Source: a virus. From it: a stretch of DNA of 29,459 nt. Made by a program: the position numbers and the translations under genes. Below, one piece after another: positions 62 through 28,891 of the stretch (position 1 is its first letter; each line of letters opens with the position of its first letter). The stretch is taken from the UHGV virus genome UHGV-0320987; one strand, written 5' to 3'. The notes beneath the pieces are model-generated. The model worked only from the letters and a program-made list of their open reading frames with translations, did no database searches and was not told the origin of the DNA.

Positions 62-601
62 ATGAAGAAAGTTTTTCTTTGCGCCATCTTAGCCTCCTTA
101 AGCTATCCGGCTATCGCCTCATCATTGCAGGATCAACTCTCTGCTGTCGCAGAAGCGGAACAGCAAGGTAAAAATGAAGAGCAAAGGCAGCATGACGAAT
201 GGGTCGCGGAGCGCAACAGGGAAATCCAGCAAGAGAAGCAACGTCGCGCAAATGCCCAGGCCGCCGCTAACAAAAGAGCGGCAACGGCAGCGGCAAATAA
301 GAAAGCTCGTCAGGATAAACTGGACGCCGAAGCCTCTGCGGACAAAAAACGCGATCAAAGTTATGAAGATGAGCTACGCAGCTTAGAGATTCAGAAACAA
401 AAACTGGCGCTGGTGAAAGAAGAAGCCCGCGTTAAGCGAGAAAACGAATTTATCGATCAGGAACTGAAGCACAAAGCTGCGCAAACCGATGTGGTGCAAT
501 CTGAAGCTGACGCCAACAGAAATATGACTGAAGGCGGTCGCGATCTGATGAAAAGCGTGGGCAAAGCAGAAGAGAACAAATCGGACAGCTGGTTTAATTA
601 A
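62..601 (+). CDS. Secreted coiled-coil protein of unknown function (host or phage cargo)
   Basis: ATG at 62 preceded by AGGAGG; N-terminal signal peptide MKKVFLCAILASLSYPAIA; remainder K/E/Q/A-rich and predicted coiled coil; followed by a hairpin terminator. Confidence 0.6.
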   Translation: MKKVFLCAILASLSYPAIASSLQDQLSAVAEAEQQGKNEEQRQHDEWVAERNREIQQEKQRRANAQAAANKRAATAAANKKARQDKLDAEASADKKRDQSYEDELRSLEIQKQKLALVKEEARVKRENEFIDQELKHKAAQTDVVQSEADANRNMTEGGRDLMKSVGKAEENKSDSWFN

Positions 602-672: not shown

Positions 673-795
673 CATTCATAGTGCAGGGTCAAATCATTCC
701 CACTCAATTATTTACGACAACCATAACCAATTGAGTGATAACACTTTTACAAACCTCAACTTTTCCCGTACCGTTTTATATACCGTCACCGGAAA

Positions 796-3148: not shown

Positions 3149-5464
3149 TCATAAAATAGATTTCGTCTTTGTAACAATAACATCTACAAAATCGCCTGCA
3201 GATATAGCTGATGGTACTGTATCTGCAAGAGTAATCTTTCCTGAAGAGATGCTTTGCACATCCAATAATTTATTTTCAATCCCATCCGTATATACCAATT
3301 TGATATCACTGAATGGAGGGTAATAAGTAATGGTCGCTTGGTATACATATATTTCACTGCCTGAAATTGATTTCACTACATACCTGCCCCTTACAAGATT
3401 AATTTTGAGTTCAGATAAATCTGTTTTATAACAGGTAATTCCTGAACCAATGTTAGCCATACTAATATCAGTATCACTATGATAAGTAATTGCTTTACCT
3501 TGCTTTAAAGTAAAAGTATTTTTACTTTTCCTTGGTAAGGATGTGCTATTTTTGTAATATCTACCAGTTAAGCATAGCCATGAAAATGCAGTATTCACTA
3601 CATTACCACCAGAATACACAGCTAAACGAATTGCACTAACTGGAACTCCTTCATTATTAATCCTGATCTTAATGGAAGAAATATTAGTAGCAGTTCCATA
3701 TCTATGGTTAGCAGAATCCCATTGCATCGAAGAAGTTATGGCTTCTGTTTGTGAGGTTATGACATTCCCGTCTCCATCTAATGCATACAGGTAAATGCGA
3801 AACGATGCCGTATCTGCTGAGAATGTAAACATATCACCATTTCTTACTGGTATATCTCCAGATTCCCATAACAACCCAAAATTCCGCATAAAAGCAAACT
3901 TAGAAGAAACTAGGTGACGGATATTATATAAACCATCTACATCTGTTTGATATGCTAATACACCAACTTCTCCATTGTTGGCACTGGATATAAATGGGGT
4001 GTTAGCATTTAAAGAAAACAATGTTACTTCATCGGATATATTTTCCTGAACATGAAATACTGCATTCCCCTTGCCATTATCAGTTACCTCTACATAAGTG
4101 TAAGGTGATGGATTGTATGGTTCATTTGTATAGTAAGGAGAACTTAACCATGAAGCCTCAATTGAGTTATTCCACGTATATTCACCAAAGTTAATTATCA
4201 ACTGTTGGTTAGTTGGGGATGATGGATATCGTTCAAAACGAAACCCGTAGAAGTAATTGTTATCACCTCTTTGAATATCAATTTTACCTGCCCCCTCCAT
4301 AGTTCCACCATAAAACTTATTGTGGTTATGATGATATGGATTATCAGCGAAAATGATATTATTCGTACGATTCAGATAAAAATAGTTTTCATTTATCCAT
4401 CCGTTCTCAACTCCAAGAAAATGAATTGTATCGACCTTTTTCAGGTTAAAGGTTGAGTATGCTATTGAATAATCCGTCGATGCCACCGAAGCATTATAAT
4501 TTGCATATAACTGTAAGTAGTCGCAACGCTCAATGTTTATATGCTGCCCTTTTGCCCCGATAATACGAATATCCGGTGTCGTTTCAGATGAAATACCAGA
4601 ATTTCTGATAATCGTTCCGAAGTTTTGTCTTGGGTTGTTAGGGTTTGATGCATTCCCGCCAAGCAATACCCCTATTCCTGAGTGGGATATGGTAAAAACA
4701 GCATTGGTCATTTCGAGGCTGACATTACGAAGATTTAATGTCTCCGTAATAATAAAATTACCTTCCGCTCGTAATGTTCTGGATGATTCTCGTGCATATT
4801 CTGCAGCCAGGATCAATGCAGATGTATCATCTGTTATACCATCGCCTTTTGCCCCAAAATCGCGAACACTAACGGTGTCTCTCATCTTATCCTGGAACGT
4901 TCGGTATACTGCTCCAGAACCATACTGAATAAACCAACCAAAACCACCAACAACCCCGGCGATTGCAGCATCGACATAATTACGCATTGAGCGATTATTT
5001 ACAGCGTCCTGCTCAAGTGATGGATCTGCAAGGTTAGAAATTTTGTTTTGCTTTGCATCGTAATATTTTGCAAGCAAAGATGGTTTCATCAATGCACGTC
5101 TGAACCACCCAAAACATTGCTGGATCAGCATCGTCAGGTAGTCAAAAGCATCTTCATGCACTTCGGGGAAAAATTTTCCCTGATTGCGAAGATCTGTCTC
5201 CTGCACTACATCAAGCACACGATCTATCGTAATTCGCCAGCCAGCAGCAAGCGGAGACGGCAGAACCACTGAACCGCCACTATAAGTGCCCGCCCCAGTT
5301 ACCGTATAACCGGTATCCAGAACCAATTCTGTTACGTTCCCGTTCAGGTCAGACACCTGAACAACCAGGTCTGATTTTCTGAAAATTCGAAAAGTATACG
5401 GAAACGATGTCGTAACGCCGTTACCTGTGTATTCGTTGTGGTCAACTTCGGTTGAGACCGTCAT
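3149..5464 (-). CDS. Tailspike (conserved particle-binding N-terminus, beta-helix polysaccharide depolymerase body)
   Basis: 771 aa; N-terminal MTVSTEVDHNEYTGNGVTTSFPYTF is the conserved tail-fibre/tailspike anchor motif; DFGAKGDGITDDTSAL is a pectate-lyase-like beta-helix signature; GGAG 7 nt upstream of the ATG; AT-rich, N/S/T/Y-rich body. Confidence 0.85.
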   Translation of the reverse strand: MTVSTEVDHNEYTGNGVTTSFPYTFRIFRKSDLVVQVSDLNGNVTELVLDTGYTVTGAGTYSGGSVVLPSPLAAGWRITIDRVLDVVQETDLRNQGKFFPEVHEDAFDYLTMLIQQCFGWFRRALMKPSLLAKYYDAKQNKISNLADPSLEQDAVNNRSMRNYVDAAIAGVVGGFGWFIQYGSGAVYRTFQDKMRDTVSVRDFGAKGDGITDDTSALILAAEYARESSRTLRAEGNFIITETLNLRNVSLEMTNAVFTISHSGIGVLLGGNASNPNNPRQNFGTIIRNSGISSETTPDIRIIGAKGQHINIERCDYLQLYANYNASVASTDYSIAYSTFNLKKVDTIHFLGVENGWINENYFYLNRTNNIIFADNPYHHNHNKFYGGTMEGAGKIDIQRGDNNYFYGFRFERYPSSPTNQQLIINFGEYTWNNSIEASWLSSPYYTNEPYNPSPYTYVEVTDNGKGNAVFHVQENISDEVTLFSLNANTPFISSANNGEVGVLAYQTDVDGLYNIRHLVSSKFAFMRNFGLLWESGDIPVRNGDMFTFSADTASFRIYLYALDGDGNVITSQTEAITSSMQWDSANHRYGTATNISSIKIRINNEGVPVSAIRLAVYSGGNVVNTAFSWLCLTGRYYKNSTSLPRKSKNTFTLKQGKAITYHSDTDISMANIGSGITCYKTDLSELKINLVRGRYVVKSISGSEIYVYQATITYYPPFSDIKLVYTDGIENKLLDVQSISSGKITLADTVPSAISAGDFVDVIVTKTKSIL

Positions 5465-5568
5465 GTTAAATCTCCAGATAGTCGCAGCACCCGTTGCGCC
5501 GCATATCTGGTTATTCTATTACCCAAAAAACCATATATGGATAGAAAGACTGTGAATATGAATAGATA

Positions 5569-5583
5569 TTACCTTTCAGGTAA
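5569..5583. promoter_or_regulatory. Operator-like palindrome TTACCTTTCAGGTAA (copy 1)
   Basis: Perfect TTACC-N5-GGTAA inverted repeat in the divergent tailspike / Ant-C-paralogue intergenic region; identical to the copy at 25214. Confidence 0.6.
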
Positions 5584-5620
5584 TTTGCAAAACGTGCTGG
5601 ATAGCAAACAAATTATTTGC

Positions 5621-5640
5621 TACTGTATAAATATACAGTT
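5621..5640 (+). promoter_or_regulatory. LexA (SOS) box overlapping the -10 region of the Ant-C-paralogue promoter
   Basis: TACTGTATAAATATACAGTT matches the E. coli consensus TACTGTATATATATACAGTA at 18/20 with perfect CTGT-N8-ACAG (5623-5638); 22 nt upstream of ATG 5661. Confidence 0.65.
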
Positions 5641-5660
5641 ATTGCATGGAGAAGATTAAG

Positions 5661-5918
5661 ATGCAGCAGTATCACTATCCACTGGAAGACGGATTTACCG
5701 AAAGGATTCACACGCCGGGAGGCGTCAGGTCACTGGTGGAGGGATCGCACTTGATGAAATTACTCCGGGATCTCGATAAGGATGGATTTAATGTCGATGG
5801 CCCACTTGCTGAACTGACTGCACTGATTAACTACGTCACCAGCTCACAGATGTCTATGCGGGATCTGCAAACACATCTCGACTATTGTGCCGAACAATTA
5901 CGAAAACAAACCACATAA
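5661..5918 (+). CDS. Free-standing paralogue of the antirepressor C-terminal domain (candidate SOS-inducible small antirepressor)
   Basis: About 45 percent identity over about 60 aa with the C-terminus of the antirepressor at 7066-7761 (IHTPGGV.SL.E.S.LM.LL..L..DG..V.G..AELT...Y......RD.QTH..Y). Start taken at ATG 5661 (GGAGAAG 8 nt upstream); ATG 5646 is the alternative. Confidence 0.6.
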   Translation: MQQYHYPLEDGFTERIHTPGGVRSLVEGSHLMKLLRDLDKDGFNVDGPLAELTALINYVTSSQMSMRDLQTHLDYCAEQLRKQTT

Positions 5919-5940
5919 AAAAAAGGCCGCAAGAGCGGCC
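5917..5940 (-). terminator. Intrinsic terminator of the zinc-ribbon gene (weaker in the plus direction)
   Basis: GGCCGC-AAGA-GCGGCC hairpin (5925-5940) overlapping the TAG stop; an 8-nt A-run on the plus strand gives a U8 tract for the minus-strand transcript. Confidence 0.7.
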
Positions 5941-6668
5941 TATCGTTTCGCTTTGTGCTCGTCCCAGCACGTTTTGCACCATGCCATTAAGCCGTCCGCA
6001 TTTTGATTATTAGAGTAAAAGCTGGTGCGTTTTCTGCGGACATTACAAATTGGGCACCACTTCATATGGCGTGTATTCTTTGGGCCATCGAGACACCTTG
6101 CACACCACTTAGTCAATCCATCTGGATTTTTTGACGATTTCCTGAATTTTTCATATGGAAGGTTTATTCTGCATCGCAAACACTGCTTACTACCACTTGA
6201 AACTCTGTTAGCTGATTCTTCTTGTGATGGCGATACAGAAGGTATTCTTGCTGGCTCAGATACTACCTGAGGAGCTTTTTTAGGTAACTGAGACGATATG
6301 TCATCACCTGGGAATCTGTCATGATATGCCGGACGCGTTGACACTCCAGGTGGAAGCTCTGCTGTAAATGGCTTTGGCTGAATCAGCGCCCTCTCTTTTG
6401 CTGACTCCTGTTGTTTATAATATGTCTGGATTACCGATATATCATAAGCAGGATGTACTGAAATATCCGGCGCATTACCTCCAGTTTTTTGAAACTGAGT
6501 GGAGGTGTGGTCTATCACCTGTGTACGATTAATCGTTATTTCTCCATCTTCGGTCTTTATCGTTTTGCGATGATTAACGACTGTGCGATCAGAGACCTTA
6601 GTCCTGTTCTGGTTGATAACGTAAATAATCACCGTAACAACACCAACAACTATCCAGAAAACTTCCAT
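5940..6668 (-). CDS. Membrane-anchored protein with a C-terminal double zinc-ribbon (four CxxC pairs); function unknown
   Basis: 242 aa; N-terminal TM helix (FWIVVGVVTVIIYVI); T/Q/P/S-rich linker; C-terminus CLRC..WCARC..WCPIC..WCKTC with an internal repeat (NPDGLTKWCARC / NADGLMAWCKTC); GAGGA 6 nt upstream of the ATG. Confidence 0.65.
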   Translation of the reverse strand: MEVFWIVVGVVTVIIYVINQNRTKVSDRTVVNHRKTIKTEDGEITINRTQVIDHTSTQFQKTGGNAPDISVHPAYDISVIQTYYKQQESAKERALIQPKPFTAELPPGVSTRPAYHDRFPGDDISSQLPKKAPQVVSEPARIPSVSPSQEESANRVSSGSKQCLRCRINLPYEKFRKSSKNPDGLTKWCARCLDGPKNTRHMKWCPICNVRRKRTSFYSNNQNADGLMAWCKTCWDEHKAKR

Positions 6669-6688
6669 TGCTTTTCCTCACAATAACA

Positions 6689-6703
6689 TTACCTTAAAGG
6701 TAA
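6689..6703. promoter_or_regulatory. Operator-like palindrome TTACCTTAAAGGTAA (copy 2)
   Basis: Part of a perfect 17-bp palindrome ATTACCTTAAAGGTAAT, 21 bp upstream of the zinc-ribbon gene start codon, i.e. over its core promoter. Confidence 0.6.
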
Positions 6704-6781
6704 TATCTTGCTTTCAGGTGATCAAGCGTTAAACGCAATCAACCAAATACGGTTGATTTTAATATTTCTCCGCGTTTATCA

Positions 6782-6796
6782 TTACCTTTTCGGTAA
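6782..6796. promoter_or_regulatory. Operator-like palindrome TTACCTTTTCGGTAA (copy 3)
   Basis: Perfect TTACC-N5-GGTAA in the zinc-ribbon / ant divergent region, 79 bp from copy 2. Confidence 0.55.
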
Positions 6797-6888
6797 ATTT
6801 ACATCGCACTCCTCTTGTGCCATAGTAATCGGGCACTGGCAAAATCCAGTGCCGGGATTGGCGTCCCGGATTACTAAAAGGCGCATTC

Positions 6889-6908
6889 ACCGCGCAAGCG
6901 GTTTTTTT
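6889..6908 (+). terminator. Terminator-like hairpin upstream of ant (possible attenuator or 3' end of a small RNA)
   Basis: ACCGC-GCAA-GCGGT (GNRA loop) followed by T6-7; preceded by further hairpins (GCACTGG..CCAGTGC 6833-6852) in a region without a credible ORF. Confidence 0.4.
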
Positions 6909-7065
6909 ATGCGTATAGCACGGCCACATTCGTATTATGGTGGGCTGTGTGGGGGCACCGAAAGGTGCGCCGGGTCCTTTTAGCCGGTTACGCCAACCCT
7001 GCACAGTTCACCACCAACCGATTGGCGTCGGTAGTGGTGATTGACCAGACTAAAAGGTAACCACT

Positions 7066-7761
7066 ATGACAGCTACAAAAAGCACGTCCATTTTTTCTTT
7101 CGAATCCCAAGCCGATATACGAGTAATCGTCATTAATGGTGAGCCATGGTTTATCGCTTCAGATGTTTGTCGGGCTATAGGCATAGCAAACCATCGAGAT
7201 GCTGTTCGAAAACTTGATGATGATGAGAAGGGCGTCGCTTCAACCGACACCCCTGGCGGTGAGCAAGAATCGATCATCATCTCCGAGTCAGGCCTCTACA
7301 CACTGATCCTCCGCTGCCGCGACGCAGTGACACCAGGCACTATCCCCTACCGCTTTCGTAAATGGGTTACAGGTGAGGTTCTTCCTCAGATCCGCCGCAC
7401 CGGAAGTTACATTAAAAACTCGCTCCCGCAGGAAGAACGCATAAAGATGGTTGCCGACCAGGTTGCAAACGCCACAGCATCAGCAGTGATGCAGGCAATG
7501 AAGATAGAGAACAAAACCTACAGCGCCCCACTGAAGCCCGGCTACCGTAGCCTGATTCATTCGCCGTCTGGTGTTCTCGGCCTGACGGAGAACTCACTGC
7601 TGATGAATCTGCTGAACCAGTTACAGGAAGACGGGCATGACGTATCGGGCGCGGCGGCGGAACTGACCACCATGTTCTGCTACATCGTTGGTGTGAGCAA
7701 ATGCCTGCGTGATATCCAGACTCACGCGGAGTACATCAACGACAAAGCAGGATTCTTCTGA
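7066..7761 (+). CDS. Phage antirepressor (Bro-N/KilA-N-like N-terminal domain plus Ant C-terminal domain)
   Basis: N-terminus IRVIVINGEPWFIASDVCRAIGIANHRDAVRKLDDDEKGV is the Bro-N/AntA-type domain; the C-terminal domain is paralogous to the 5661-5918 product; AAAGG about 9 nt upstream of the ATG. Confidence 0.75.
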   Translation: MTATKSTSIFSFESQADIRVIVINGEPWFIASDVCRAIGIANHRDAVRKLDDDEKGVASTDTPGGEQESIIISESGLYTLILRCRDAVTPGTIPYRFRKWVTGEVLPQIRRTGSYIKNSLPQEERIKMVADQVANATASAVMQAMKIENKTYSAPLKPGYRSLIHSPSGVLGLTENSLLMNLLNQLQEDGHDVSGAAAELTTMFCYIVGVSKCLRDIQTHAEYINDKAGFF

Positions 7762-7788: not shown

Positions 7789-7934
7789 AAATAATTCTGT
7801 ACAGATTGCAGACTGTGGGTGAATAGCGTACTATTACCTTACGGGTGATCCATAGCGATTAGGCACCGATACAGGAGGAGCCCACATGAGAAAATTTGAC
7901 GAGTACGAAGGCGTTTAACATTCGGATAGTTCAT

Positions 7935-7949
7935 TTACCCTAATGGTAA
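7935..7949. promoter_or_regulatory. Operator-like palindrome TTACCCTAATGGTAA (copy 4)
   Basis: Perfect TTACC-N5-GGTAA 41 bp upstream of the 211-aa gene start; a degenerate copy TTACCTTACGGGTGA lies at 7834-7848. Confidence 0.55.
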
Positions 7950-7989
7950 ATCCCGCTTAAAGAAGCATCTATATATTATGAGGTGATGT

Positions 7990-8625
7990 ATGCCACAACA
8001 ACTGCTGAATCCAGCAAAGGTAACTGAGGTTTTCGCTCATCTGAACGAAACTCCAGACAACCGCGCCCTGTATTCAGAGTTAGTGAACGGCAACGATGTC
8101 ACATCTGATGTCAAAGGCGTTTCTCTGGCTCCTGGATACCGCGTTGTCCGTGTAGACGATCGTAAGAAAGGCGAGATTCCACAGGCGCACTTTGAACTGT
8201 CATTGATAAATGACCTCACCGAAGAGGTAGTGTATTACAATCGTGTCATTATCCAGCCTGACAGCTATCTTAACTGCCGTCCTGTCACGCAGATATTGGT
8301 ATGGAGAACCCAGAAGCCTAAGCATCGTGCTGTGCTTCATGATTTCGCCGGCATCATCTTCATGAACTACCTCTTGGAACGGTACGATATCATCGTGTCT
8401 GATCGCAACCAGACTCATGAAGGCATGTCGTTCTGGCAGGCTCGCATGTATGACGCACTGGAACTTGGCCTCCACCTCTATGGTTACGACATGATGACAT
8501 GCGAGCTGATAGAGATGAATAACGAGGAAGAGCTTGAGAAAGGTGAAACCTGGTTATGGGGTGATGCGGAAAACTTCCAAAACAGATTGGCCATAATTTC
8601 AAAGCATAAGCTGCCAATAAAATAG
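7990..8625 (+). CDS. Hypothetical cytoplasmic protein (orphan cargo gene)
   Basis: 211 aa, no TM or signal peptide and no motif I recognise; GAGGTGA 5 nt upstream of the ATG; own operator copy upstream and own terminator downstream. Confidence 0.65.
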   Translation: MPQQLLNPAKVTEVFAHLNETPDNRALYSELVNGNDVTSDVKGVSLAPGYRVVRVDDRKKGEIPQAHFELSLINDLTEEVVYYNRVIIQPDSYLNCRPVTQILVWRTQKPKHRAVLHDFAGIIFMNYLLERYDIIVSDRNQTHEGMSFWQARMYDALELGLHLYGYDMMTCELIEMNNEEELEKGETWLWGDAENFQNRLAIISKHKLPIK

Positions 8626-8917: not shown

Positions 8918-9769
8918 TCACTGTGCAGTTTTCGCTGATCGATTTTCAGCTCTAAATTCAAGAACCGTTTCAATATTTCTTTCCTTCAGCATATCAATAA
9001 CATTTTTATTCATTTGACTATCACTGGTTAATAACTGGTAAACGTCGCTTCTCTCTTTATCAGAGTTTTCTTTAACAGCTGCTTTGCATGCCAAATGCTT
9101 ATTGAAATTTTCTACATCGCTAGTACAGGAATTTACGGCTGCTGATGAAATATCAGACGCTGAAGAAACACCATCATCCAAACGTTTTATAGCATTTTCT
9201 ATACATGAGTTAAGGGAATAAACGACAACTGAGCGATACCCTTCAGACGCACACCATTCTAAATTTCTTGAAGGATCGAGTGGTTTTACTTCGCTGGATT
9301 GAATTAACTTGTCAAAAACTGACTTATATTCAATCTGTTTTTTATCTATAGCCCATACTTCAGTAGCTGATTTATAATTCCCCGTATGCCTATTAACATC
9401 AAATCCATGTTTTATAAGCAAATCTGCCCATGAAAGATTTATTGATTCATTGTTATGAGGCCATTTTCCTGTCAGAACCGCCCCCATAGACCCCATATAT
9501 CCGCCATATGATGGTATAGCACCATGGCTCAGTAACTTCTCAGCAACCACAGGGCAATTAATTACATAAGAGGCGTAAAGCCCATTCCATAAAGCCCCTC
9601 TATAGTAATCGCCACGATTAGGTTCTTTTAAGTCGATAGCCTTTGATAATTGTTCACACGTTTTGCATGCATCAAAGTTATCCTTATTGCATTGCAATGA
9701 ACTGGCAGCTGTAGGATTTACAGAGACTATTGAAAGCACTATGCCAAAAAACAAATTTATTTTTTTCAT
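8918..9769 (-). CDS. Secreted protein of unknown function appended to the ejection-protein operon (possibly ankyrin-like repeats)
   Basis: 283 aa; signal peptide MKKINLFFGIVLSIVSVNPTAAS; AT-rich relative to neighbours; ATG 2 nt after the upstream stop; segments VAEKLLSHGAIPS and ADLLIKHGFDVNRHT resemble ankyrin-repeat helices (weak, from memory). Confidence 0.65.
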   Translation of the reverse strand: MKKINLFFGIVLSIVSVNPTAASSLQCNKDNFDACKTCEQLSKAIDLKEPNRGDYYRGALWNGLYASYVINCPVVAEKLLSHGAIPSYGGYMGSMGAVLTGKWPHNNESINLSWADLLIKHGFDVNRHTGNYKSATEVWAIDKKQIEYKSVFDKLIQSSEVKPLDPSRNLEWCASEGYRSVVVYSLNSCIENAIKRLDDGVSSASDISSAAVNSCTSDVENFNKHLACKAAVKENSDKERSDVYQLLTSDSQMNKNVIDMLKERNIETVLEFRAENRSAKTAQ

Positions 9770-28180: not shown

Positions 28181-28773
28181 TGATTACCATCCTGACGTTC
28201 TTTGAGTCGCTTCCTGGCTGCTGCTATGCGATCAGCAATTGTCACATTCACATTAACATCCAGACGTTCTTTGAACGCGTTGACATCAACATGCTTACCA
28301 ATCAGCTCAAGGTTCTTCACCTTGTCAGGCCATTTAATTTTTTTGAGGATTGTCTCTATCGAATCCTCGTTCATGTTCATGATGGTCGATGACAGATCAA
28401 AGCCACTAAGCGTAGTGCGCCAGATTTTCGGCCACTCACGGATTGGTTTAAGGCTCCCATCGTCGTTGAGGATGTCGATCACGTCCATCTGGTCGATCTC
28501 CACCAGGCGCATGAGAACGTAATCAGCACTGACGCGCATTCGTTTGTTGCGCTCCTCCATCAACTCGGCAATCCGTTTTTGAATGCGTTCATCGCGCATC
28601 ATGACACTGGCTTTAACTGCCGCTGTATTTGGGGAGAATCCTGCGTTAATCGCTGCCTGAGTCTGGTTTTCAGGCGTTTTGATGTATGACTGGCAATAAG
28701 CCTCCTGCATTGCTGTTAGTGGCTTAAATTGCGTTGATTTGCGTTTATAGGTTTTAGGTTCAGCAGGCATCAT
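28177..28773 (-). CDS. Terminase small subunit
   Basis: About 198 aa from ATG 28773 (MMPAEPKTYKRK...); immediately upstream of and overlapping the large subunit gene. The ORF-track start (TTG at 28851) would translate through the operator palindrome. Confidence 0.65.
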   Translation of the reverse strand: MMPAEPKTYKRKSTQFKPLTAMQEAYCQSYIKTPENQTQAAINAGFSPNTAAVKASVMMRDERIQKRIAELMEERNKRMRVSADYVLMRLVEIDQMDVIDILNDDGSLKPIREWPKIWRTTLSGFDLSSTIMNMNEDSIETILKKIKWPDKVKNLELIGKHVDVNAFKERLDVNVNVTIADRIAAARKRLKERQDGNQ

Positions 28774-28790
28774 AACCACCGTGGTAATAG

Positions 28791-28805
28791 TTACCGTTGT
28801 GGTAA
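28791..28805. promoter_or_regulatory. Operator-like palindrome TTACCGTTGTGGTAA (copy 7) upstream of the terminase operon
   Basis: Perfect TTACC-N5-GGTAA 18 bp upstream of the small terminase ATG, flanked by a near-half-site (TAACCACCGTGGTAA, 28773-28787). Confidence 0.55.
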
Positions 28806-28891
28806 TAGTACCATGCAAAATAAAGCCGCCATAGTTGGCGGCAGTATTCAAAACCCATCAAATTCATCATGCATAATCTACTCGTGACATG

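What the first reader, a model, noticed from the sequence alone, without database searches (positions are those of the whole stretch)
5621..5918. Near-consensus LexA box driving a free-standing antirepressor C-terminal-domain paralogue
TACTGTATAAATATACAGTT (perfect CTGT-N8-ACAG) overlaps the -10 region 22 nt upstream of an 85-aa protein that is about 45 percent identical to the C-terminal domain of the full antirepressor 1.4 kb away. LexA-repressed small antirepressors are the induction switch in some Salmonella prophages (Gifsy/Fels type). This looks like an SOS-coupled induction module built from a duplicated Ant domain, which may act as the real antirepressor or as a modulator of the full-length Ant.
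Basis: partly seen in the sequence, partly recalled or inferred. Interest (0 to 1): 0.7.

Follow-up and report, generated by a model that had tools for sequence, protein, structure and literature searches.

The report
SOS-controlled small antirepressor, SPC32H type

Summary
A LexA box (TACTGTATAAATATACAGTT, 5621-5640) matches the 20-nt consensus at 18 of 20 positions and is the only near-consensus box in the whole prophage. It sits 22 nt upstream of an 85-aa ORF (5661-5918). That ORF is 43% identical to residues 150-223 of the BRO-N antirepressor at 7066-7761.

The module is not new. The 85-aa protein is 87% identical to Ant of Salmonella phage SPC32H (PDB 5D50 chain E). It lies at the same locus, divergent from the tailspike gene, in an epsilon15-like (Uetakevirus) prophage of E. 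coli O166:H15. The box is conserved in position across 11 related phages. SPC32H and its variant SPC32N differ by C to A inside the ACAG half-site. The prophage also encodes an SPC32H-type repressor with no S24 peptidase domain.

Most likely mechanism: LexA cleavage lets Ant be made, and Ant sequesters Rep. It works like the Gifsy, Fels-2 and 186 Tum antirepressors but is not related to them.

The two Ant-domain copies are old paralogues, not a recent duplication. The long Ant has separate control through isrK and C4 RNAs plus Rep-operator-like palindromes, and no LexA box. It is identical to the tested ORF4 antirepressor of phage vB_EcoP_ZX5. Interest is low. What remains open is how the two antirepressors divide the work.

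The parts
5568..5584 (.). Perfect palindrome ATTACCTTTCAGGTAAT, a Rep-operator-like site between the divergent tailspike and ant genes
   Evidence: exact match; 11 sites at <=2 mismatches in the window against 0.92 expected. The same motif is clustered in the SPC32H rep-cro intergenic region. The homologous epsilon15 site is annotated 'protein_bind repressor, lysogeny'. The ATTACC/GGTAA columns are invariant in 11 phages. Its role, on ant, on tailspike or on both, is not determined.
5598..5603 (+). Candidate -35 hexamer TGGATA of the ant promoter
   Evidence: Read from the sequence. CTGGA.A is invariant in alignment A1. Not called by the 9-of-12 consensus scan.
5618..5626 (+). Candidate extended -10 (TG-c-TACTGT), 17 nt after the -35; its hexamer is the left end of the LexA box
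   Evidence: Read from the sequence. TG and TA.TGT are invariant in 11 phages. Inferred, not mapped here.
5621..5640 (.). LexA (SOS) box TACTGTATAAATATACAGTT
   Evidence: unique in the window, 0 of 100 shuffles. (none elsewhere in the prophage). (conserved in position; SPC32N differs from SPC32H by C to A in the ACAG half-site).
5648..5652 (+). Shine-Dalgarno sequence GGAGA of ant
   Evidence: Read from the sequence. GGAG is invariant in A1.
5661..5918 (+). ant: 85-aa small antirepressor, orthologue of SPC32H Ant
   Evidence: PDB 5D50_E 'Anti-repressor protein', E 4.6e-47, residues 2-85 against 3-86. (86.9% identity to SPC32H ant SPC32H_020). (same locus layout). (phrog_450, E 1e-47).
5924..5941 (.). 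G+C-rich hairpin AGGCCGC-TCTT-GCGGCCT with an A run before it and a T run after it on the minus strand. It is the terminator between convergent ant (+) and ORF 5940-6668 (-), and is probably bidirectional.
   Evidence: A terminator is annotated at the same place after epsilon15 gp19.
6688..6704 (.). Rep-operator-like palindrome ATTACCTTAAAGGTAAT upstream of the isrK-C4-long ant unit
   Evidence: exact match.
6781..6797 (.). Rep-operator-like palindrome (1 mismatch) abutting the -35 of the isrK promoter
6798..6826 (+). Promoter-like site TTTACA-17-(TG)CATAGT; the predicted start near 6833 coincides with the 5' end of isrK
6833..6908 (+). isrK-family Hfq-binding sRNA, ending in a terminator hairpin at 6889-6902 followed by a T run
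   Evidence: RF01394, 77.9 bits, gathering score 50. (terminator). The same arrangement occurs in 8 related loci.
6933..7018 (+). C4-family antisense RNA
   Evidence: RF01695, 77.7 bits, gathering score 45..
7050..7062 (+). Shine-Dalgarno region of the long ant (CUAAAAGG / GUAACC), complementary to C4 segments 6976-6983 and 6986-6991
   Evidence: exact 8-nt and 6-nt complementary words.
7066..7761 (+). Long antirepressor, 231 aa: BRO-N domain (aa 17-107) plus a C-terminal small-Ant-like domain (aa 150-226, nt 7513-7743)
   Evidence: PF02498, E 2e-21. (aa 150-226 match 5D50_E residues 3-79, E 1e-13).. (100% identical to vB_EcoP_ZX5 ORF4 anti-repressor, tested by overexpression in PMC9782041).

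Best explanation
The 5598-5941 segment is the SOS-triggered induction switch of an epsilon15-like (Uetakevirus) E. coli prophage. It is orthologous to the ant module of Salmonella phage SPC32H.

In the lysogen, host LexA binds the box at 5621-5640. The box covers the -10 hexamer and the transcription start of the ant promoter, so ant stays silent. DNA damage activates RecA, LexA cleaves itself, and ant is transcribed. The 85-aa Ant then binds the phage repressor Rep. Rep is a 194-aa protein with helix-turn-helix domains and no autocleavage domain, encoded about 35 kb away in the same prophage. Binding takes Rep off its ATTACC-N5-GGTAAT operators, and the lytic genes are derepressed.

Shown here: the box, its uniqueness and conservation, orthology of Ant and of Rep to the crystallised SPC32H pair, and synteny. 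Inferred from the SPC32H work: LexA binding, SOS inducibility, and Ant-Rep binding in this phage.

The neighbouring 231-aa BRO-N protein carries an old paralogue of the same domain. It is a second antirepressor under separate control by isrK/C4 RNA and Rep-operator-like sites.
For: - Ant matches PDB 5D50 chain E 'Anti-repressor protein' over its whole length (E 4.6e-47).
- Ant is 86.9% identical to the gene annotated ant in SPC32H and SPC32N.
- The locus layout is the same as in SPC32H, divergent from the tailspike gene.
- The LexA box is unique in the window and in the rest of the prophage.
- The box is conserved in position in 11 phages from E. coli, Salmonella, Enterobacter and Klebsiella. 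The promoter elements around it are invariant.
- SPC32H and SPC32N differ by C to A in the ACAG half-site. From my memory of Kim and Ryu 2013 (J Virol 87:11775, not held in the library), this is the mutation that makes Ant constitutive.
- A Rep orthologue is present in the source genome: 42% identity to SPC32H Rep (E 2e-53), and PDB 5D50_A 'Repressor' at E 4e-42. It has HTH domains only, with no Peptidase_S24.
- Secondary literature describes the mechanism. LexA self-cleavage leads to Ant, which inhibits the repressor (PMC7380047). [quoted passage not shown] Ant binds the C-terminal tetramerisation domain of Rep (PMC9986798).
- The small ant is present in all 35 matching phage records, whereas the long fused form is present in only some.
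Against: - There is no experiment on this E. coli prophage.
- The two primary SPC32H papers could not be read here. Details of LexA control rest on secondary citations, database records and my memory.
- Rep is only 42% identical to SPC32H Rep, so Ant-Rep binding is extrapolated, although Ant itself is 87% identical.
- The promoter is weak by consensus (4/6, 3/6 plus TG) and was not called by the generic scan.
- A Rep-operator-like palindrome lies 13 nt upstream of the -35. Its effect on ant is unknown.
- The only functional study of a near-identical E. coli phage (ZX5, PMC9782041) tested the long Ant and ignored the small one.
Confidence: 0.85

Rival explanations
1. The small protein is not the primary antirepressor. 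Instead it modulates the long BRO-N Ant, for example by forming mixed oligomers through the shared domain, and the long Ant is the real inducer.
For: - The two proteins share a homologous domain.
- SPC32H Ant is reported to be a tetramer (PMC9638917), so mixed oligomers are conceivable.
- Overexpressing the identical long Ant of ZX5 lowered lysogen counts about 1000-fold (PMC9782041).
Against: - SPC32H, epsilon15 and the other Salmonella members have only the small Ant and no long copy (one place per record). In SPC32H the small Ant is the annotated and crystallised antirepressor.
- phiV10 keeps an intact small ant, while its long Ant is frameshifted after aa 181.
- The two domain types are only about 40% identical and form separate clades.
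Confidence: 0.07
2. The LexA box mainly controls something other than ant, such as the divergent tailspike operon, or it is a chance palindrome with no regulatory role.
For: - The box lies in a 196-nt divergent intergenic region shared with the tailspike gene.
- No high-scoring consensus promoter was called.
Against: - The box is 157 nt from the tailspike start but only 22 nt from the ant start, and it overlaps the conserved TGn-TACTGT element.
- None of 100 shuffles gave a site this close to consensus.
- It is conserved in position across four host genera.
- The SPC32H to SPC32N difference falls inside the box.
Confidence: 0.03
3. The protein is a homologue of the Gifsy, Fels-2 and 186 Tum antirepressors.
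For: The regulatory logic is the same: a LexA-repressed small antirepressor acting on a repressor that is not cleaved (PMC7380047; PMC3121763 listed).
Against: - tblastn of the protein against 50,697 phage records found only 35 records, all from Escherichia, Salmonella, Klebsiella and Enterobacter phages and many of them classified as Uetakevirus. None was 186, Fels-2 or Gifsy.
- A full phmmer scan of 1.84 billion representative proteins found 45. The 20 hits down to E of about 1e-7 that were aligned all share one domain; the weakest hits include repeat-like matches in very long proteins and were not examined.
- There is no Pfam or NCBIfam match.
- From memory, Kim and Ryu 2013 describe Ant as structurally distinct from the antirepressors of Sipho- and Myoviridae.
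Confidence: 0.03

Closest known systems
Ant/Rep/LexA antirepression system of Salmonella phage SPC32H (Kim and Ryu 2013, J Virol 87:11775; Kim et al. 2016, PNAS 113:E2480; PDB 5D4Z, 5D50)
   Same: - Same phage genus (Uetakevirus).
- Same gene position, divergent from the tailspike gene.
- Ant is 87% identical over its full length.
- The LexA box is in the same register over the same promoter elements.
- Same type of repressor: two HTH regions plus a C-terminal tetramerisation and Ant-binding domain, with no S24 peptidase.
- Same operator palindrome, ATTACC-N5-GGTAAT.
   Different: - The host is E. coli.
- Rep is only 42% identical.
- The box is closer to consensus: its AT-rich spacer is ATAAATAT, against ATGTTTAT in SPC32H.
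- This prophage also carries a second, long antirepressor with a paralogous domain, and extra accessory genes of unknown function between ant and the structural genes.
- Nothing has been tested experimentally in this phage.
LexA-controlled antirepressors of other temperate phages: 186 Tum, Fels-2 Tum, Gifsy-1 and Gifsy-3 GfoA and GfhA (Lemire et al. 2011, PMC3121763), N15 AntC (from memory)
   Same: They work the same way. The phage repressor is not cleaved by RecA. A small protein under a LexA box is made on SOS induction and inactivates the repressor by binding it.
   Different: No detectable sequence relationship. They belong to different phage groups and act on different repressor families.
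Gifsy-1 isrK-orf45-anrP locus (PMC4825925) and the P1 immI c4-icd-ant operon (applies to the neighbouring long Ant, not to the finding itself)
   Same: - isrK and C4 family RNAs score above the Rfam thresholds directly upstream of an antirepressor gene.
- isrK ends in a terminator that must be read through.
- The C4 loop is complementary to the ribosome-binding region of the antirepressor gene.
   Different: - The antirepressor here is a BRO-N protein whose C-terminal domain belongs to the SPC32H Ant family.
- Rep-operator-like palindromes flank the promoter.
- Regulation has not been tested in this phage.
vB_EcoP_ZX5 ORF4 anti-repressor (PMC9782041)
   Same: It is 100% identical to the 231-aa protein at 7066-7761. 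ZX5 also carries the small ant (98.8% identical) and integrates at the same att site at the 3' end of guaA.
   Different: That study tested only the long protein by overexpression. It did not mention LexA, SPC32H or the small gene, which is annotated as hypothetical.

Membership tests
SPC32H-type small antirepressor Ant (PDB 5D50 chain E) | Full-length sequence homology to SPC32H Ant in a free-standing protein of about 86 aa | tested here: met
   (E 4.6e-47, residues 2-85 against 3-86). (86.9% identity).
SPC32H-type small antirepressor Ant (PDB 5D50 chain E) | LexA box overlapping the ant promoter | tested here: met
   18 of 20 consensus positions, in the same alignment columns as the SPC32H box. 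The SPC32N variant carries C to A in ACAG.
SPC32H-type small antirepressor Ant (PDB 5D50 chain E) | Position in an epsilon15-like genome, divergent from the tailspike gene | tested here: met
SPC32H-type small antirepressor Ant (PDB 5D50 chain E) | Cognate SPC32H-type Rep in the same phage, with no RecA-dependent autocleavage domain | tested here: met
   Rep lies outside the window but in the same prophage of NZ_AP041805.1. It is 42% identical to SPC32H Rep and matches 5D50_A at E 4e-42. It has HTH domains only, with no Peptidase_S24.
SPC32H-type small antirepressor Ant (PDB 5D50 chain E) | Ant physically binds Rep and releases it from operator DNA; the transcript is SOS-inducible | not testable with these tools
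   Needs biochemistry and genetics. Known for SPC32H only.
Tum, Gifsy and Fels-2 type LexA-controlled antirepressors | Sequence homology to Tum, GfoA or GfhA | tested here: not met
   (35 phage records, all from Escherichia, Salmonella, Klebsiella and Enterobacter phages; no 186, Fels-2 or Gifsy). (45 representatives; the 20 aligned share one domain). (no Pfam match). No direct structural comparison was made.
Tum, Gifsy and Fels-2 type LexA-controlled antirepressors | LexA-repressed promoter driving a small protein that acts on a non-cleavable repressor | tested here: met
   This is a similarity of mechanism only.
C4/isrK RNA-controlled antirepressor operon (P1 immI, Gifsy-1 isrK-anrP); applies to the long Ant | isrK and C4 RNA genes directly upstream of the antirepressor gene, with C4 complementary to its ribosome-binding region | tested here: met
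   (both above the gathering score). (8-nt and 6-nt exact complementarity to the Shine-Dalgarno region; the whole-duplex energy is only about 2 sd better than shuffles). (conserved in 8 loci).
BRO-N domain proteins (Pfam PF02498); applies to the long Ant | BRO-N domain above the Pfam cut-off | tested here: met
   (76.7 bits against a cut-off of 25.6, aa 17-107).
P22 Ant / KilAC (Pfam ANT, P22_AR_N, P22_AR_C) | Match of the small protein to any of these Pfam domains | tested here: not met
   no such hit for either window protein. A P22_AR_N fusion to the same C domain exists in TL-2011b.

The most novel reading that the evidence does not exclude
Uetakevirus-like prophages routinely carry two antirepressors built on one Rep-binding domain. 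The free 85-aa form is wired to LexA and the SOS response. The other is a fused form, with BRO-N, AntA, pRha or P22_AR_N at the N terminus, wired to isrK/C4 RNA and Rep operators. On this reading both converge on the same surface of Rep, possibly as mixed tetramers, giving the phage two independent inputs to one switch. The crystallised small Ant would then be the minimal, repressor-specific effector module of the large and poorly understood family of modular 'Ant/BRO' phage proteins. No paper in the searchable library describes this pairing.
Probability: 0.3. Interest if true: 0.45.

Novelty: new member of a known kind. Interest (0 to 1): 0.2.

Why it matters
It matters little for new biology, because the mechanism is published and crystallised for SPC32H. 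Three practical points do follow.

1. The gene is present in 529 of 5426 complete E. coli genomes and is annotated 'hypothetical protein' in the rows listed. It has no Pfam or NCBIfam model, and its PHROG family is marked 'unknown function'. A known induction switch is therefore invisible to routine annotation.

2. The one functional study of a near-identical E. coli phage (ZX5) examined only the long Ant and overlooked the LexA-controlled one.

3. The same domain recurs, free and fused to four different N-terminal domains. That gives a testable handle on what the C-terminal parts of modular phage antirepressors do.

Tried and rejected
- **Primary SPC32H papers and the epsilon15 genome paper.** I tried the DOIs and PMC3807360, PMC4983836 and PMC2698709. 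None is held. Secondary citations, GenBank and PDB records and a direct SPC32H against SPC32N comparison were used instead.
- **Generic promoter scan.** It found no site of 9 of 12 or better at ant. The promoter was inferred from conservation instead.
- **Alternative -10 (TATAAA, 5626-5631).** It would need a 22-nt spacer from the conserved TGGATA, and it falls in the variable spacer of the box, so I rejected it.
- **A LexA box for the long Ant.** I looked for one and found none.
- **tRNA-like reading of 6830-7020.** ARAGORN found nothing there, and Rfam identifies isrK and C4.
- **Recent in-genome duplication.** Rejected, because the fused and free domains form separate clades and the same fused C domain (98% identical) sits on an AntA N terminus elsewhere.
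- **Divergent tailspike promoter.** I tried to place one so that the 5568-5584 palindrome overlaps a core promoter. TAGAAT at 5518-5513 on the minus strand is a good -10, but the palindrome lies upstream of both candidate promoters, so its role is unresolved.
- **C4 duplex energy.** The whole-duplex energy of C4 with the leader is only about 2 sd better than shuffles. Only the exact words at the Shine-Dalgarno region are cited.
- **Structure prediction and fold search.** Not run, because a solved structure already matches both proteins by sequence.

Full report
**1. What is in the sequence**

The window is one arm of a complete prophage. It matches the chromosome of E. coli O166:H15 strain JNE070796 (NZ_AP041805.1) at 100%. 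The prophage lies between yfgI and the 3' end of guaA. The 17-nt att core ATTGAGTGGGAATGATT occurs at window 692-708 and again next to guaA (core sequence from PMC9782041).

Gene order and nucleotide matches place it among the epsilon15-like podoviruses (genus Uetakevirus). The nearest relatives are TL-2011b, phiV10 and vB_EcoP_ZX5.

The finding lies in the 196-nt gap between the tailspike gene (3149-5464, minus strand) and a small plus-strand ORF.

**2. Check of the observation**

TACTGTATAAATATACAGTT is at 5621-5640. It differs from the 20-nt LexA consensus at 2 positions. It is the only site in the window within 3 mismatches, and none of 100 shuffles gave one. The rest of the prophage has none either. 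Two other CTGT-N8-ACAG strings in the window have G+C-rich spacers.

The ORF runs from ATG 5661 to TAA 5918, which is 85 aa. GGAG at 5648-5651 precedes it, and the hairpin at 5924-5941 follows it.

The ORF is 43% identical (32/74, E 2e-16) to residues 150-223 of the 231-aa protein at 7066-7761.

**3. What it is**

The 85-aa protein matches one solved structure: chain E of PDB 5D50, 'Anti-repressor protein', over its whole length (E 4.6e-47).

A tblastn search of 50,697 phage records found it in 35 records, from Escherichia, Salmonella, Klebsiella and Enterobacter phages. In SPC32H and SPC32N the match (86.9% identity) is the gene annotated ant. In SPC32H the gene sits in the same place, divergent from the tailspike gene.

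I aligned the tailspike-ant intergenic region of 11 phages from four host genera. The LexA box falls in the same columns in all of them. Around it these elements are invariant:
- CTGGA.A, the -35 (TGGATA, 5598-5603);
- a TG two bases before the box;
- TA.TGT, the -10 (TACTGT, 5621-5626);
- the GGAG ribosome-binding site.

The promoter therefore reads TGGATA, 17 nt, TGn-TACTGT. The box covers the -10 and the predicted start site.

In the same alignment SPC32H and SPC32N differ by one base, C to A, in the ACAG half-site. From my memory of Kim and Ryu 2013 (J Virol 87:11775; not held in the library), this is the mutation that makes Ant constitutive and SPC32N lytic.

Secondary sources that I could read describe the mechanism:
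- LexA self-cleavage allows synthesis of an antirepressor that inhibits the repressor by protein-protein contact (PMC7380047).
- Ant binds the C-terminal tetramerisation domain of Rep (PMC9986798).

**4. The partner**

Rep is not in the window, but it is in the same prophage (L012 6909-7493). It is 42% identical to SPC32H Rep (E 2e-53). It matches PDB 5D50 chain A 'Repressor' (E 4e-42). It has helix-turn-helix domains and no S24 peptidase domain. A repressor like this would need an antirepressor for SOS induction.

The palindrome ATTACC-N5-GGTAAT is clustered next to rep in SPC32H and in this prophage. The epsilon15 RefSeq record annotates the homologous sites as repressor-binding. The window has 11 such sites at 2 or fewer mismatches, against 0.92 expected. 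One perfect copy lies at 5568-5584, 13 nt upstream of the ant -35, and it is conserved in all 11 phages. It lies upstream of both candidate divergent promoters, so its effect on ant or on tailspike is open.

**5. The 'full antirepressor' 1.4 kb away**

The protein at 7066-7761 has a BRO-N domain at aa 17-107. Its residues 150-226 match nearly the whole of 5D50 chain E (E 1e-13). It is 100% identical to ORF4 of phage vB_EcoP_ZX5. Overexpressing ORF4 lowered lysogen counts from 10^9 to 10^6 (PMC9782041).

It has no LexA box. Its upstream region contains the following:
- two operator-like palindromes (6688-6704 and 6781-6797);
- a promoter-like site (6798-6826) whose predicted start coincides with an isrK-family sRNA (6833-6908, 77.9 bits);
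- the isrK terminator;
- a C4-family antisense RNA (6933-7018, 77.7 bits).

Two C4 segments (CCUUUUAG and GGUUAC) are exactly complementary to the Shine-Dalgarno region of the long ant at 7050-7062. This layout recurs in 8 related loci. It parallels the Gifsy-1 isrK-orf45-anrP locus (PMC4825925) and, from general knowledge, the P1 immI c4-ant operon.

**6. Relation between the two copies**

A full scan of 1.84 billion representative proteins found only 45 relatives. They include free forms of 82-95 aa and C-terminal fusions of 130-319 aa.

In related prophages the same C domain follows different N-terminal domains: AntA (L016), pRha (L017) and P22_AR_N (TL-2011b gp42), as well as BRO-N. In L016 and L017 a small ant gene sits immediately upstream of the fused gene.

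In a neighbour-joining tree the fused C domains group apart from the small Ants. The window's C domain is 98% identical to one fused to AntA. So the two window copies are old paralogues shuffled as a module, not a recent duplication.

The small gene is in all 35 phage records. The long form is missing from the Salmonella members and is frameshifted in phiV10. This argues that the small Ant is the core switch and the long one is accessory.

**7. Comparison with known systems and novelty**

By every sequence-based criterion I could test, this is a member of the SPC32H Ant family. It works like 186 Tum and the Gifsy and Fels-2 antirepressors but shows no sequence relationship to them.

The finding is therefore a correct rediscovery of a published switch in an E. 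coli relative. I file it as a new member of a known kind, with low interest.

Two things seem undescribed in the searchable literature. One is the regular pairing of a LexA-wired free Ant with an RNA-wired fused Ant. The other is the annotation gap: the locus is in 529 of 5426 complete E. coli genomes and is labelled 'hypothetical protein' in the rows listed, with no Pfam or NCBIfam model.

**8. Limits**

No experiment exists for this prophage. The primary SPC32H papers were unavailable. The promoter is inferred from conservation. Ant-Rep binding is extrapolated across a Rep that is only 42% identical.

Noticed in passing
window 5568-5584, 6688-6704, 6781-6797, 7833-7849, 7934-7950, 25213-25229, 25833-25849, 28772-28806: ATTACC-N5-GGTAAT palindromes occur 11 times at 2 or fewer mismatches, against 0.92 expected. 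Most of these sites lie just upstream of annotated genes or ORFs: ant and tailspike, isrK-C4-long ant, ORF 7990, and the small terminase. They match the motif clustered beside rep in SPC32H and the sites annotated 'repressor, lysogeny' in epsilon15. This suggests a repressor with operators spread around the genome, as in P1.
   Followed up: partly
window 6833-6908 and 6933-7018: isrK-family sRNA and C4-family antisense RNA lie directly upstream of the long antirepressor gene. Two C4 segments are complementary to its Shine-Dalgarno region (7050-7062). PGAP and GenBank annotate part of the C4 region as an 'ash family protein' CDS in ZX5.
   Followed up: partly
L016 6001-6651; L017 6001-6960; L001 6609-7553; window 7066-7761: The small-Ant-like C-terminal domain is fused to four different N-terminal domains (AntA, pRha, P22_AR_N, BRO-N) in related prophages. 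The TL-2011b copy sits in a P22 immI-like unit with an Arc-like repressor and a sar RNA hit.
   Followed up: partly
window 5661-5918 compared with L012 6909-7493: Ant is 87% identical between this prophage and SPC32H, but the repressors are only 42% identical. This hints that Ant targets a conserved Rep surface and could act across immunity types.
   Followed up: no
L009, L010, L011 (Klebsiella phages) and L017 5560-5580: In the Klebsiella-type relatives the left half-site of the box reads ATGT instead of CTGT (TATATGTATATATATACAGTA). The box is imperfect there, while the upstream operator-like palindrome stays conserved.
   Followed up: no
L006 3571-4155 (phiV10): The phiV10 long Ant is 99% identical up to residue 181, then frameshifted. 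It loses most of the Ant-like C domain, while its small ant is intact.
   Followed up: partly
window 5940-6668 (minus strand): A 242-aa ORF lies between the two ant genes. It has an N-terminal hydrophobic segment and C-terminal CxxC zinc-ribbon repeats (phrog_6762; weak Stc1 and endonuclease VII-like hits). It is absent from SPC32H, phiV10 and ZX5 at this position, and a longer related stretch is annotated in TL-2011b. Function unknown.
   Followed up: no
window 7990-8625 and 8918-9769: Two accessory ORFs of unknown function. One is phrog_1349 (211 aa), preceded by two operator-like palindromes. The other is phrog_6118 (283 aa), which has a signal-peptide-like N terminus and lies on the minus strand. 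In TL-2011b a YafO-family toxin gene occupies part of this stretch.
   Followed up: no
window 62-601 and 692-708: The left end of the window is host DNA: yfgI (DUF5384). The prophage att core ATTGAGTGGGAATGATT is at 692-708, and its partner lies at the 3' end of guaA outside the window, so both att cores are in place.
   Followed up: yes
window 25551-25627: A tRNA-Arg (anticodon TCT) gene lies between the terminase and portal regions, next to operator-like palindromes.
   Followed up: no
E. coli complete genomes: The ant promoter-plus-gene segment (5560-5925) occurs in 529 of 5426 complete E. coli genomes at mostly 95-99% identity. It is annotated 'hypothetical protein' in the rows listed. There is no Pfam or NCBIfam model, and phrog_450 is labelled 'unknown function'.
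   Followed up: yes
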